In this document: positions 19,763 to 63,702 of the stretch, piece after piece
Layout: the number at the start of each line of letters is the position of its first letter
Position numbering within the stretch: position 1 is the first letter of the stretch
DNA from: Zootoca vivipara
Lineage: Eukaryota
Assembly (NCBI RefSeq): GCF_963506605.1
Contig: NC_083277.1
Location: 5,518,001-5,582,000 of the forward strand
Length of the DNA stretch: 64,000 nucleotides
Reading direction: 5' to 3'
Notes under the pieces: generated by a model
The model's input: the letters and a program-made list of their open reading frames with translations, nothing else
What the model was told of the DNA's origin: nothing
The model's database searches: none
Made by a program: the position numbers and the translations under genes

Positions 19763-19962
19763 NNNNNNNNNNNNNNNNNNNNNNNNNNNNNNNNNNNNNN
19801 NNNNNNNNNNNNNNNNNNNNNNNNNNNNNNNNNNNNNNNNNNNNNNNNNNNNNNNNNNNNNNNNNNNNNNNNNNNNNNNNNNNNNNNNNNNNNNNNNNNN
19901 NNNNNNNNNNNNNNNNNNNNNNNNNNNNNNNNNNNNNNNNNNNNNNNNNNNNNNNNNNNNNN
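19763..19962. other. Assembly gap (200 N)
   Basis: Run of N. Confidence 1.
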
Positions 19963-24300: not shown

Positions 24301-26287
24301 CTAAGAGGAGGACATTTTTCTTTTTCTTTAGGGTCCAGTTTGCTTTGAAGAAGTAGCAGTTTATTTCACAGATGATGAGTGGGCGTTGCTGGATGCTGAC
24401 CAGAGAGCTCTGCATAACGAAGTCATGGAGGAGAATTGTGGGCTCATGGCTTTTCTCAGTAAGGCTCCCTGTTGGATCATAATATCTTTTGTGAAATTCA
24501 GTACCTATCTCTGAGACGACCCTCCCAATATTTTGATGTAGCTCAGCCGCGCCACCTACAGCATCTGGCGTTCTAACACCCCAACAGATAACCTTGAGTT
24601 TGTTGTTTGGTCTGTGAATAATCTTTCTCCAGTTATGCCATGTTAAACAATGATCAGGCTGGTCTGAACTGCCCAGGACTTTTTAAACGTAAGCTTCAGA
24701 GTTGTTAGGGAAGTGGATTCTGTCAGGTTTGTCGTTTTTTTCTTTTTTCTTCTGTCAGTGTTTGGTTGGCAAAAGAGACTACTGACTTTGGAGATGGAGT
24801 GGATTCCATGACTGGGCCAAACAAAATCCATCCCAGGTTTCTTGAATCTCAGGTTCCCATAANNNNNNNNNNNNNNNNNNNNNNNNNNNNNNNNNNNNNN
24901 NNNNNNNNNNNNNNNNNNNNNNNNNNNNNNNNNNNNNNNNNNNNNNNNNNNNNNNNNNNNNNNNNNNNNNNNNNNNNNNNNNNNNNNNNNNNNNNCCCAC
25001 TTTATCACTACCCTAAGGAGTCTCAAAGCAGCTAACATTCTCCTTTCCCTTCCTCCCCCACAACAAACACTCTGTGAGGTGAGTGGGGCTGAGAGACTTC
25101 AGAGAAGTGTGACTAGCCCAAGGTCACCCAGCAGCTGCATGTGGAGGAGCGGAGACGCGAACCCGGTTCCCCAGATTACGAGTCTACCGCTCTTAAACAC
25201 TACACCACACTGGCTCTGTGAACCCTGTAGTAAGACCTCACATCAAACTCCCTTCTGTTATTTCCCCAGCACAAATTTTAATTTGGATTGTTCAATAATT
25301 TGGGGCTCCATTTCTTCCTGAGGCTCTGATCTATTTCTCTCTTTATTTACAGGTGGTGATAAATCAGAAATTAAGAACAAGGGAGACAACAACAAAATCC
25401 CTTATGAACGTTTGGGGTGTAGAGATGGCTTCAGCCAGAGGTTCCACTCCACTTCCCATCAAAGAAATCCCACTGGGAAGAAATTATATCAGTGCTCAGA
25501 ATGTGGAAAGAGCTTCAGTCAGAGCTCAAATCTCACTTCCCATCAAAGAATCCATACTGGAGAGAAACCCTATCAGTGCCTGGAATGTGGAAAGAGCTTT
25601 AATCGGAACTCACATCTCACGTCCCATCAAAGAATCCACACCAAGGAGAAGCCATATTACTGCTTGGAATGTGGAAAGAGCTTCACTCGGAACTCCAATC
25701 TTACTTTACATGAAAGGATTCACAGAGGGGAGGAACCATTTAAATGTATGGAATGTGGAAATAGCTTCAATTCCAAGAGAAGTCTCACTTCGCATCAAAG
25801 AGTTCATAGTGGGAAGAAACCATATCAGTGCTTAGAATGTGGAAAGTGCTTCACCTGGAAGGAAAGTCTCACTTCCCATCAAAGAATTCATACAGGGGAG
25901 AAACCATATCAGTGCTTGGAATGTGGTAAGAGCTTTAATACAAGCACAAACTTCCGTCGACATCAGAGAATTCATAGTGGGGAGAAGCCATATCAATGCT
26001 TGGAATGTGGGAAATGCTTTAATACAAGCACAAACTTCCATAGTCATCAAAGTATTCACCGTGGGGAGAAACCATTTCAATGTCAAGAGTGTGGAAAAAG
26101 TTTCAGTCGGAAGGAAAGTCTCACTTCCCACCAAAGGATCCATACTGGCGAGAAGCCATATCAGTGCATGGAATGCGGAAAGAGATTCAGCCAGAGTTCC
26201 AATCTCACTTCCCATCAAAGAACTCACAGTGGGGAGAAACCGTATCAATGGTTGTATACAAATTTATTTTTAGGAGATTTTATTTAG
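21333..26287 (+). CDS. Gene 2: SCAN-KRAB-C2H2 zinc finger protein, ~540 aa, 9 fingers. Exons 21333-21728 (SCAN), 21918-21999, 22611-22693, 24332-24458 (KRAB-A), 25353-26287 (ZF)
   Basis: SCAN motif; [26 protein letters not shown]; 9 intact fingers; GT-AG junctions in frame (82/83/127-nt exons). An N gap lies in the last intron. Confidence 0.88.
22097..22443 (+). mobile_element. Full-length Sauria SINE (Squam1, lacertid type)
   Basis: GGGACGCGGGTGGCGCTGTGG head, GTTCGAATCCC B-box, ACCTTT-type tail, TSD CCAAAAGCCCAA(GGGA). Confidence 0.92.
23325..24245 (-). mobile_element. L1/Tx1-like LINE 3' fragment interrupted by a Helitron
   Basis: Minus strand reads [30 protein letters not shown], resembling an L1-clade ORF2 C-terminus; the sequence rejoins across 23559/24151. 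Confidence 0.6.
23560..24150 (+). mobile_element. Complete non-autonomous Helitron (591 bp)
   Basis: A|TCTAGATATATAAAAATG 5' end, CACAGCAACGCGTG...CAGCTAG|T 3' end, inserted at an A|T site with no TSD. Confidence 0.82.
24863..24995. other. Assembly gap (133 N)
   Basis: Run of N. Confidence 1.
24996..25216 (-). mobile_element. Squam3-like SINE
   Basis: Reverse complement of the SINE at 20311. Confidence 0.8.
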
Positions 26288-28392: not shown

Positions 28393-29599
28393 GAATATAA
28401 ATAATATATTTGTTGAATATAAATAAATAAATCCCACCCACTCCAATGTGTGTATGGGGGAAGGGCTTAGAAACCTGTTTTGCTTTGTTTTCCTGAACAC
28501 TTGCAATAGGGACTTATTTCGCAGCCGAAGTGTGAAAACAATAAATACTGCTTTCTTTGGTTCTGTGTACCTGTTGCCTGCTGTAAGCATAGCAGCTCAA
28601 TACAACCTTTGATTTGGATCACAACTGAATTTGGGAGTTCCGTATGATGAGATAAGAGAGACCTGGTCTGAATAGAGACATAGGATTCTTATCTCATTAT
28701 ATTGTACATGATAAAGCTATTTTTAGCCATCTCACCCCTTGCTTTTTTCTGTAAGACCAATTGCAGTCCTTAACAGTCATCAACAGGTTTACCACACCTA
28801 TCGGCCAATCACCTAATGACAAACTTAGTTGGTCTCTAAGGTGCTACTGGAAGGAATTTTTTTATTTTGGTGATAATTATGTTCCTGGCAGAGTCTATTC
28901 ATGCATACACAATGCAGTTGTCAATAACACAAATATCCTAGCACCGGGGTATCAAGTTTAACTTGTCCCATTGCTGATGGTGAGCATATTCCTCAAAACC
29001 ATCGCATGAAATAAAAATAAAATTTTCTAGTTCTTCATGAAGCAATAATTCAAAGAGTGTGGTAACGTGGATGGTGTTGTCTTCTTCCAATTAGGAGCCT
29101 TCTAATTGGGTCATGGTTCCTGTGCTGAAATAGTCTGTTCCGCCAAGAAATCAAAAATGTAAAGACCTGCCTCCCTCAAATACCAAGAGCTGCAGTTTAC
29201 CCTTTACTGTATAGATAGACCTACAATTTCCAGCACCCTTCGCAAACTTCAGTTCCAGGGATTCTCGTGCAGGGAGTATGTGTGTAAAAACGTAATGTAA
29301 ATATACTTGGCTGTGCAAAACACCCATCTCAACCCCTAAACTGGAAACGGGAAATCGCCCCGCACCCTTTCACCTGCTTTGTTGGGAGCAGTCCTGTGTG
29401 CTCCGCCAAGAAATTGGAACTTTGGAGGGACCTGGGGTGTCACTGGGTCTGTGTACACACAAGCCTGCATCTAAAGACCTGCCTTCCCACCCACATCCCG
29501 CCTCATCCACCCAATACTGAGTTCACCCCTTTGCAGAACTACAGTTCCCAGCACCCTTTGCAAACTGTATTTCCCAGGGGTTGGAATGTGCTGGGCAGC

Positions 29600-32337: not shown

Positions 32338-37754
<5,417 letters not shown>

Positions 37755-41436: not shown

Positions 41437-41464
41437 ACAAGGCATATCTTGTTGACTTTTGAGG

Positions 41465-41623
41465 TTACAGGTAGGTAGCCGTGTTGGTCTGAGTCGAAGC
41501 AAAATAAAAAAATTCCTTCAGTAGCACCTTAAAGACCAACTAAGTTTTTATTTTGGTACGAAAGCTCATACCAAAATAAAAACTTAGTTGGTCTTTAAGG
41601 TGCTACTGAAGGAATTTTTTTAT
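41465..41623. mobile_element. Penelope-like element terminal remnant (inverted repeat)
   Basis: Inverted arms around TTGGTA|CGAAAGCTCATACC; 13-bp flanking duplication TTGACTTTTGAGG. Confidence 0.78.
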
Positions 41624-41717
41624 TTGACTTTTGAGGGTTTGGCGACCCTCAGTTTTATGTTTACTCACGTTTTGGGGCAGAAGTTTTGTCAGCTGGATAA
41701 GGGAATGAAATGTGTTT

Positions 41718-61888: not shown

Positions 61889-63702
61889 ATGGCAGAAGAA
61901 CGAAGGAGTTCCCGTAGACCTCTTGGAGGTTTCCGTGGAGCGCAGATGGACGAGGAAGACTCAGCTGGCCCTGAAGCAGGAAGAGGCTGCAATGCCGCCA
62001 AGATTGGAAGCAGTTGGGCATCCTGGAGAACCTTGCTGCAGAAAGTCCTGATTGAGCAGCGTGCCCACAGCTCAGATGTACATCGCCAGCAGTTCAGAAA
62101 TGTTCACTACAAAGATGCACAGGGGCCCCGAGAGATTTGCAACAGACTCTACCGTATTTGCCATCGTTGGCTGAAGCCAGAGCAACACACAAAGAAGGAG
62201 ATCCTGGACCTGGTGATCCTGAAGCAGTTCATGAGTGTCCTTCCACCGGAGATGGAGACCTGGGTGAAAGAATGTGGAGCGGAGACCAGTTCCCAGGCAA
62301 TGGCTCTGGTTGAAGGTTACCTCCTGAGCCAGGCAGAGGAGAAGCAGCTAGCAGGGCAGCAGGTGAGAGTGTTTCATTTAGCCTAGATAGTCCCAAATGT
62401 TTTAGAATCTTCGACAGGGTATCCCAAAAGTCTCTACTAATTGCCCATTCTCTTTTGGAAAGCATCTAAGGAAGTTTCCCCACCTCCCCGTCATTCCTTT
62501 TCTAATCCTTCTTCCCATTCTGTGTTTTATAATAATAATGATAATAATAATAATATAATTTATTATTTATACCCCAGGCACTCTGGGCGGCTTCCAACAG
62601 ACATTAAAATACAATAATCTATTAAACATTAAAAGCTTCCCTAAACAGGGCTGCCTTCAGATGCCTCCTAAAAGTCTGGTAGTTGTTTATCTCTTTGACA
62701 TCTGGTGGGAGGGCATTCCATAGGGCGGGTGCCACTACCGAGAAGGCCCTCTGCCTGGTTCCCTGTAGCTTCACTTCTCGCAGGGAGGGAACCACCAGAA
62801 GGCCCTCCGGGCAGAACGATGGGGGTGGAGACGTTCCTTCAGGTATACTTTACTGTTCTTTACTGTTTCAGGGAGAGGATTTGGTTGTAGAAATGGACAC
62901 TGATTGCTCAGAGGCAGAGATGGCTGCATCGGACACCAGAGAGAGGCCACTTGGTAATATTTAATGGGATTTATCCCAATTTCATTGATCTTGGAAATAG
63001 GCTTTGGGCTCATTTAATCTTTTCTGGTTACAGGTAGGTAGCCGTGTTGGTCTGAGTCGAAGCAAAATAAAAAAATTCCTTCAGTAGCACCTTAAAGACC
63101 AACTAAGTTTTTATTTTGGTATGAGCTTTCGGTATCTGAAGAAGTGTGCATGCACACGAAAGCTCATACCAAAATAAAAACTTAGTTGGTCTTTAAGGTG
63201 CTACTGAAGGAATTTTTTTTATTAATCTTTTCTGGAATGACACTTCTCTCTAGTATTTTCCACCCCTGGGTAAATATTAATAGGATGTATCTCAAATTGG
63301 CCTCTTTCTGTTGAGTGTGAAATAAATCCGGAGGCTCCTTTAATTGTTTTTTGGCATGGAGGGGAAGACACTTGTTGCCAGTTTTTCCCACAGATGAAAA
63401 ATGTCCTTGCTTAAAACCACTCACTACTTTATGCATGGGGACCTGCACATTTTGCCCAAAGGAGGAGAGTCACATTTTTACACAACTGATATATTAAATG
63501 GTATAAACACTTTAATAAAATAAGTTTTTTCCCCCAAAGGCATGTGTATTCTTATGTATACATCACTTAACCTCTGAAAGGAGCAAGTTCAACTGTCTTC
63601 CCACTAACTTTGATTTTCGCAGGTGACAGAATGATGCTGACAAGACCTCAGCCATCTGCTCTTCACAATGGAGGGGAAGCAGCTTCTTTGGCACAAGATC
63701 AG
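61889..63702 (+). CDS. Gene 6 (5' partial): SCAN(-KRAB-ZF) paralog. Exons 61889-62362 (SCAN), 62872-62953, 63623-63702; KRAB and ZF exons expected beyond the window
   Basis: SCAN motif plus 82- and 80-nt linker exons homologous to genes 2-5, with GT-AG junctions in frame. Confidence 0.82.
62530..62848 (-). mobile_element. L2 LINE 3' fragment
   Basis: Same sequence family as 12975-13262. Confidence 0.78.
63029..63221. mobile_element. Penelope-like element terminal remnant (inverted repeat)
   Basis: ~65-bp inverted arms (63067-63131 and 63157-63223); flanking duplication TTAATCTTT(T)TCTGG. Confidence 0.82.
63131..63170 (+). ncRNA. Minimal type I hammerhead ribozyme motif (Penelope-associated)
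   Basis: GGTAT-CTGAAGA-A-GTGTG(CATG)CACAC-GAAA-GCTC-ATACC: stem I GGUAU/AUACC, core CUGANGA and GAAA, stem II hairpin, palindromic AGCU stem III, predicted UC cleavage site at 63165. Confidence 0.75.

What the first reader, a model, noticed from the sequence alone, without database searches (positions are those of the whole stretch)
63067..63223. Intact hammerhead ribozyme motif in a ZNF intron, in sense orientation and overlapped by its own antisense arm
Seen: 63131-63170 has all hammerhead core nucleotides (CUGAAGA, GAAA, UC), a 5-bp stem I, a 5-bp stem II, an extra A after A9 and a palindromic AGCU stem III. It lies on the transcribed strand of gene 6. The upstream inverted arm (GGTATGAGCTTTCG, 63118-63131) is complementary to the ribozyme 3' half as part of a ~65-bp hairpin. 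Related copies at 33595 and 41465 have broken cores. Known: Penelope-like elements carry minimal hammerheads that cleave best as dimers. Inference: the inverted pLTR structure may auto-inhibit cleavage and make the insertion tolerable, or act as a conformational switch or dsRNA (ADAR/Dicer) substrate in the pre-mRNA.
Basis: partly seen in the sequence, partly recalled or inferred. Interest (0 to 1): 0.7.

Follow-up and report, generated by a model that had tools for sequence, protein, structure and literature searches.

The report
Hairpin-locked Penelope retrotransposon hammerhead stub
This self-cutting RNA motif in a zinc-finger gene's intron is one of about 16,000 identical copies spread by a Penelope-type jumping gene; it sits behind its own mirror image, a known insertion footprint, so it is predicted to stay zipped in a long hairpin and likely does nothing for the host.

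Summary
The motif is real: a minimal type I hammerhead at 63131-63170, on the gene's strand, behind a perfect 63-bp antisense arm. It is the pseudo-LTR end of a Neptune-type Penelope-like element (PLE): 16,387 exact copies of the core 36-mer and 842 junctions like this one in the genome. The insertion is 63028-63221, with a 14-bp target duplication and a one-sided tail, the published head-to-head layout. The arm is predicted to abolish the ribozyme fold (+21.7 kcal/mol): a lock, not a switch. No sign of selection: cores are intact in 31 of 34 unprotected and 37 of 39 protected arms; bias among intronic copies could not be tested. Family statistics suggest how such stubs arise: 5' ends pile up about 30 nt below a TATA-like box, often with an extra G, not at the cut site; 81 of 90 hairpins have one tailed arm, usually the shorter (64:17). 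Likely two reverse transcriptions of uncleaved, capped RNA. This scan noted the same kind of insertion in other lizard genomes, and the extra G in this genome. Ordinary as a locus; modestly useful for PLE mechanism.

The parts
63014..63027 (+). Left target-site duplication, 14 bp
63028..63068 (-). Tail of the antisense arm (element positions about +85 to +126, counting hammerhead C3 = 0); unpaired in the hairpin because the other arm has no tail
   Evidence: tail ends just before the ORF start in a tandem unit
63069..63131 (-). Antisense arm, 5'-truncated at element position +21 (inside the hammerhead); pairs perfectly with 63157-63219
63131..63131 (+). Junction G: last letter of the antisense arm and/or a cap-derived G; supplies the fifth pair of stem I
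   Evidence: origin inferred
63132..63223 (+). Sense arm, element positions -4 to +87, no tail, 100% identical to another genomic copy; begins at the inferred transcription start
63131..63170 (+). Minimal type I hammerhead: stem I, CUGAAGA, extra A, stem II, GAAA, palindromic AGCU, C17; expected cut 63165/63166
63222..63235 (+). Right target-site duplication, 14 bp
62954..63622 (+). Host intron 2 of a SCAN-domain zinc-finger gene (exons 61889-62362, 62872-62953, 63623-63702)
   Evidence: weak exon 1 reads fit + transcription
41464..41630 (.). Second head-to-head stub of the family: tailed arm from +31, tail-less arm from +20, 13-bp duplication, no CUGAAGA
33582..33781 (.). Older head-to-head stub of another subfamily; core letters on the minus strand, stem I lost

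Best explanation
The feature is a young, 194-bp head-to-head insertion of two end pieces of a very abundant Neptune-type Penelope-like retrotransposon, whose standard minimal hammerhead is predicted to be locked in a 63-bp hairpin and is likely a neutral passenger in the intron. Shown: family, copy number, target duplication, one-sided tail, and the statistics of ends. Inferred mechanism: the element's promoter starts a capped RNA at about -7 to -4, just ahead of stem I; the endonuclease nicks both target strands about 12-15 bp apart; each end primes reverse transcription at one of two internal sites (about +89 and +128); the +89 copy runs off the RNA's 5' end, the +128 copy mostly stops inside the hammerhead, and the two cDNA ends are joined. 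The template was uncleaved. On either strand of such an insert the antisense arm comes first, so blocking follows from geometry and needs no selection.
For: 16,387 exact core copies; 842 junctions of this type. Upstream of longer copies lies a GIY-YIG domain above Pfam cut-off in a 3.0-kb tandem unit with an RT match. 3' ends are bimodal, near +83-94 and +123-130, as for the two RT start sites of the Anolis element, which extends both strands (PMC11167929). Exactly one tailed arm in 24 of 25 pairs and 81 of 90 hairpins; the truncated arm is the tailed one in 64 against 17. Both arms of an insertion are alike: 38 of 88 pairs identical over 40 nt against 7.5 expected. 5' ends: 24 of 98 arms at -11..0, 7 at -45..-12, 0 at +28..+32; 16,884 copies reach -4 but 8,446 reach -11; a TATA-like box starts at -35 in 10 of 12 long copies. 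Non-native letter before -4: G 3,167, A or C 1,598; only 32 G copies have native upstream. Junctions exactly at the cut site: 75, against 46 at a control position. Predicted blocking 21.7 kcal/mol. Core intactness equal with and without arm.
Against: No cleavage assay and no 5'-end RNA data. The G excess is not purely cap-derived: of 42 G junctions read, 17 abut an inverted arm that often itself ends in G, 7 have G as last letter of the duplication, and only 3 show a clean single extra G. 17 of 81 one-tailed hairpins have the reverse asymmetry, and several long pairs have the longer arm tailed. The cut site has a small excess over the control (75 vs 46), which I ascribe to stem I microhomology without testing. 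The core-intactness test is small (73 arms), young and mostly of unknown genic position, so it has little power. In three RNA runs, family reads over the ribozyme bin run mostly antisense to it (first mate +/-: 1486/383, 674/187, 286/221), which would fit loss of sense copies or sense RNA, though a few loci dominate these reads.
Confidence: 0.82

Rival explanations
1. Tolerated by filtering: unprotected sense hammerheads cut pre-mRNA (in trans, or helped by the element's protein) and are purged, so arm-locked copies such as this one are enriched in sense introns. The arm still arises mechanically.
For: Arm predicted to block the fold; Xenopus retrozymes are depleted from introns (bioRxiv 10.64898/2026.07.22.740005); family RNA reads are mostly antisense over the ribozyme; the Anolis hammerhead cleaves with protein present (PMC11167929).
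Against: Unprotected arms keep intact cores (31 of 34); monomeric minimal motifs did not cleave in vitro (PMC4209133); no pile-up of read ends (fragmented libraries, weak).
Confidence: 0.12
2. Host-used switch or dsRNA substrate: the hairpin is edited or diced, or opens to release the ribozyme, and so regulates this zinc-finger gene.
For: A perfect 63-bp duplex in a pre-mRNA is the kind of structure ADAR and Dicer accept (general knowledge); the gene is weakly transcribed.
Against: Insertion is young (sense arm 100% identical to another copy), absent from the matching introns of paralogues, one of 842 alike; 21.7 kcal/mol barrier; A>G places (10, 10, 11) do not exceed T>C (11, 13, 11) or C>T in three runs, though these reads come from other copies.
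Confidence: 0.04
3. Other origin of the arm: fold-back self-priming, on the cDNA or on an antisense template (proposed in PMC3846280), or use of a spliced RNA whose 3' splice site lies just ahead of stem I.
For: Palindromes at inverted junctions led to the self-priming proposal; short templated inserts occur at junctions here; one subfamily has a pyrimidine run and AG before -5, and in D. virilis the intron end maps to helix I.
Against: Fold-back of a cDNA predicts that the complete arm holds the tail; the reverse is seen 64:17. Solo copies joined to target DNA also start at -7..-3. No shared first exon precedes the junctions, and the youngest subfamily lacks the AG.
Confidence: 0.15

Closest known systems
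Minimal hammerheads (min-HHR) in pLTRs of metazoan PLEs (Cervera and de la Pena 2014, PMC4209133)
   Same: Type I, stem I 4-5 bp, long stem II, extra base between 9 and 10.1, G10.1-C11.1, palindromic 15.2-16.2 without loop 3; thousands per genome; pairs on opposite strands reported; reported in turtle and snakes.
   Different: Here both arms overlap the ribozyme itself, and the copy begins on stem I; activity not tested.
EN+ PLE insertions with inverted, 5'-truncated pLTR, one-sided tail and target duplication (Pen2a_Av, PMC3846280; general scheme PMC8557442)
   Same: Head-to-head arms, 30-40-bp tail on one arm, 9-15-bp duplication, TATA plus initiator-like motif in the pLTR.
   Different: No ORF: the insert is only about 194 bp. 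The rule that the tail-less arm reaches the inferred start while the tailed arm stops short was not in the passages I read.
PAc, Poseidon element of Anolis carolinensis (Frangieh et al. 2024, PMC11167929)
   Same: Two internal RT start sites bounding the tail, both strands extended, unprocessed RNA used, no reads ending at the cut site.
   Different: This family has the CX4CxxC linker of Neptune/Nematis type; its ORF starts after the tail, not inside stem II.
Non-LTR retrozymes (bioRxiv 10.64898/2026.07.22.740005)
   Same: Non-coding, hammerhead-bearing, derived from PLE pLTRs.
   Different: Retrozymes are head-to-tail tandem arrays that allow dimers; this is a single head-to-head insert.
L1 twin priming and cap-derived extra G (PMC3287187 passage; twin priming recalled, seen only as a reference title)
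   Same: Two priming events from the two target ends; extra G at complete 5' ends.
   Different: In L1 the two pieces do not overlap (recalled); here both arms copy the same RNA stretch.

Membership tests
Minimal type I hammerhead of metazoan PLEs | Conserved core C3-A9, G12-A14, A15.1-U16.1, H17 in type I order | tested here: met
Minimal type I hammerhead of metazoan PLEs | Short stem I, long stem II with G10.1-C11.1, extra base after A9, palindromic stem III without loop | tested here: met
   features from PMC4209133
Minimal type I hammerhead of metazoan PLEs | Lies in the pLTR of a PLE | tested here: met
Minimal type I hammerhead of metazoan PLEs | Self-cleavage as dimer or with protein help | not testable with these tools
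   needs an assay; no end pile-up in fragmented RNA-seq is not a test
Rfam hammerhead families | Match to a covariance model | tested here: not met
   no hammerhead family at E<=1
EN+ Penelope-like elements | RT followed by C-terminal GIY-YIG with two cysteines inside the motif | tested here: met
   GIY-YIG 24.7-25.4 bits over cut-off 22.6; RVT_1 29.3 bits, just under cut-off 29.6, on a frameshifted copy
EN+ Penelope-like elements | Tandem pLTRs, inverted truncated copy, one-sided tail, variable target duplication | tested here: met
Neptune clade | CX2-5CxxC linker between RT and endonuclease (shared with Nematis) | tested here: met
   CX4CxxC; definition
Neptune clade | RT phylogeny | not tested
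   no reference set was fetched
Non-LTR retrozyme | Two or more head-to-tail units, each with a complete hammerhead | tested here: not met
   one hammerhead, head-to-head arms
Domesticated intronic hammerhead or regulatory switch | Conservation across species and active monomer fold | tested here: inconclusive
   fold predicted blocked; other species not available; young age argues against

The most novel reading that the evidence does not exclude
The stubs record the PLE insertion reaction: one capped, uncleaved sense RNA that starts on the hammerhead's first bases is copied twice from the two nicked target strands, the leading copy (from +89) running off the cap and the trailing copy (from +128) stalling in the ribozyme. 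That would replace the antisense self-priming model of head-to-head PLE inserts and make the hammerhead a self-decapping brake on the element's own message rather than a template-processing step.
Probability: 0.35. Interest if true: 0.55.

Novelty: new member of a known kind. Interest (0 to 1): 0.22.

Why it matters
As a locus it matters little: it shows that an intact, sense, intronic hammerhead can be a passenger. As a class, hundreds of such short inserts give countable footprints of the still unexplained PLE insertion reaction (start site, two priming sites, uncleaved template), and put many perfect 60-130-bp duplexes into lizard pre-mRNAs, whose editing or silencing is open.

Tried and rejected
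DNA search of the own genome with the 92-bp arm gave nothing because common words are skipped; patterns were used. Rfam: microRNA matches are generic hairpin scores below threshold. Run search: no RNA holder listed on record. RNA reads (3 raw runs, about 6% of each, plus 1 contig set): 94-96% of raw reads run on into other loci, unique intron flanks and exons 2-3 have almost no cover, no place where many molecules begin or end; not usable for cleavage, editing or splicing of this locus. Contigs of 4 runs (2 studies, kind not on record): each has a contig from 63201 to 63500, only 23 letters inside the element (under the 31 asked for bridging), left flank uncovered, no empty-site joint among those shown (202 not shown): fixation or polymorphism undecided. 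Cleaved RNA as main template: rejected. G at -5 as a native variant: rejected. RT stalling at stem I as cause of the -4 pile-up: rejected by reasoning, RT meets the 3' strand (+33) first. Orientation bias in introns: not attempted, no annotation. Lunse et al. 2016 is not held; seen only through a review passage. Searches for prior reports: Penelope + Neptune + squamate + palindrome + hairpin 0 papers; Penelope-like + twin priming 3, none on PLEs by title or abstract start; five-term search on capped starts 1, on plant retrozymes; searches added nothing beyond PMC3846280. Subscription journals, Repbase and supplements (for example the reptile alignments of PMC4209133) were not seen and may hold this family.

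Full report
Numbering: hammerhead C3 (window 63136) = 0; the expected cut lies between +29 and +30.

1. Observation. The window shows every feature named. A descriptor for minimal type I hammerheads hits once in 64 kb, here, and never in 20 shuffles. 63069-63131 pairs perfectly with 63157-63219; the region folds at z = -16.2. The host is a SCAN-domain gene on + (Pfam SCAN E 8.6e-35); the three exons read in frame across GT-AG introns and match paralogues. In one RNA run exon 1 has up to 12-fold cover, all with first mate on minus, which fits + transcription in a usual stranded library; no read confirms the intron. Rfam has no hammerhead match.

2. What it is. The insertion is 63028-63221 between 14-bp duplications: a tailed antisense arm (+21 to about +126) joined to a tail-less sense arm (-4 to +87). 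The core 36-mer occurs 16,387 times in the genome, reversed control 0; the downstream 37-mer 16,472 times; the same junction type 842 times. Longer copies continue upstream into a GIY-YIG domain. L118 holds a 3.0-kb tandem unit whose ORF, broken across frames, starts just after the tail and has RT, a CX4CxxC linker and GIY-YIG: an endonuclease-bearing PLE of Neptune/Nematis linker type (definition in PMC8557442). The organism is a lizard by my recall of such repeats and by the scan's notes; no call names it. G63131 is junctional, so the native stem I has 4 bp.

3. Would it cut? Alone, stems I and II form (hammerhead-shaped fold about 0.17), but stem III has no loop and needs a partner. With 13 nt of arm the fold costs 14.4 kcal/mol, with the whole insertion or intron 21.7; prefix folding shows the arm taking the 3' half as it is made. 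Published minimal motifs did not cleave as monomers and weakly as dimers (PMC4209133, parts 1-2 of 4 read); the Anolis motif needed protein (PMC11167929, parts 1-2 of 4). So it is predicted inactive with the arm and probably near-inactive without.

4. Is the arm selected? Sample: 98 arms on the first 4 Mb of contig C1, anchored on a downstream 37-mer that ignores the ribozyme (the anchor was shifted one base, so 98 rather than the 100 listed). 59 have an inverted partner. Of 73 arms with a complete ribozyme region, 39 are protected and 34 solo; cores are intact in 37 and 31 (p 0.66). This gives no sign of selection but has little power, since genic position is unknown. Against my reading: family RNA reads over the ribozyme bin are mostly antisense to it in 3 of 3 raw runs, and Xenopus retrozymes are depleted from introns (bioRxiv 10.64898/2026.07.22.740005, parts 1-3 of 5 read). 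Neither speaks to arms.

5. How the stub arises. 3' ends of 169 arms fall in two groups, about +83-94 and +123-130. Pairs have exactly one tail in 24 of 25. In 90 hairpins of the finding's type (89 from the first 100 of 842 listed plus the window's own; one duplicate dropped, one second match in the same locus, 8 not fetched), 81 have one tail, 7 none, 2 both; the truncated arm is tailed in 64, the ribozyme arm in 17; 53 have 12-17-bp duplications. Arms of one insert are alike beyond chance (38 of 88 identical, 7.5 expected; 2 of 90 dropped as unalignable), which fits one event but does not tell one RNA from two of one source. 5' ends of the 98 arms: 36 at or beyond -100, 12 at -99..-46, 7 at -45..-12, 24 at -11..0, 13 at +1..+12, 5 at +13..+27, 0 at +28..+32, 1 beyond. 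Genome-wide, 16,884 copies reach -4 and 8,446 reach -11 (part of the drop may be subfamily variation). A TATA-like box starts at -35 in 10 of 12 long copies. The non-native letter before -4 is G in 3,167 and A or C in 1,598, with native upstream in only 32 G copies; an extra G at complete 5' ends has been ascribed to the cap for L1 and SVA (PMC3287187 passage). Of 42 G junctions read in 40 loci, 17 abut an inverted arm, 11 show no duplication, 7 have G as last duplicated letter, 3 a single extra G, 4 a short insert, so the cap reading is likely, not shown. Junctions exactly at the cut site number 75 against 46 at +26 (one subfamily group, two non-native letters required), far below the thousands at -4: cleaved RNA is rarely the template. 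Inference: a capped, uncleaved RNA is copied from both nicked strands at two internal sites; the inner copy runs off the 5' end, the outer one mostly stops in the ribozyme. Fold-back predicts the opposite tail asymmetry. The antisense self-priming model (PMC3846280 passages) does not account for ends at a sense start site.

6. Comparison. Minimal hammerheads in pLTRs, inverted truncated copies, one-sided tails and duplications are published (passages for PMC8557442, PMC6765202, PMC3846280, PMC2377424). It is not a retrozyme. My searches found no report of the start-site pile-up or the tail asymmetry (open literature only). These are unchecked AI notes and no support.

7. Verdict. Observation confirmed; blocking predicted; adaptive reading unsupported. 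New member of a known kind, interest 0.22; the mechanistic reading of the family would deserve 0.55 if shown.

Noticed in passing
L088 5436-7742 (G000:C1 about 2,777,400-2,779,750): Four head-to-tail 598-bp copies of the element's 3' end, each with an intact hammerhead and tail, 99.4% alike: a retrozyme-like array where dimers could form.
   Followed up: partly
L118 4231-8141: Tandem 3.0-kb unit of the parent element with a third, inverted copy upstream; ORF broken across frames.
   Followed up: partly
window 10700-63700: Cluster of SCAN-domain zinc-finger genes: five SCAN exons on + (21288, 32338, 43506, 54625, 61889) and one on - (16687), with C2H2 arrays near 10.8-11.9, 25-26, 36-37, 46-47 and 58 kb.
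   Followed up: partly
window 28700-28869: Fourth copy of the family, + strand, with an internal gap that removes the hammerhead region between upstream pLTR sequence and +32.
   Followed up: no
junctions in L121-L250: Many junctions carry short templated inserts copied from the ribozyme's antisense strand, suggesting repeated template jumps before joining.
   Followed up: no
L240, L241, L244: Three unlinked loci share the same 40-letter complex junction, so a whole hairpin stub may itself have been re-copied.
   Followed up: no
one search list, for example G000:C2:95928549-95928612: Four pairs of matches face each other around a perfect palindrome centred at the cut site: hairpins with both arms starting at +30.
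   Followed up: no
window 62572-62850: Another interspersed repeat in intron 1 of the same gene, heavily covered by reads from other loci.
   Followed up: no
window 19763-19962 and 24863-24995: Two runs of N, far from the finding.
   Followed up: no
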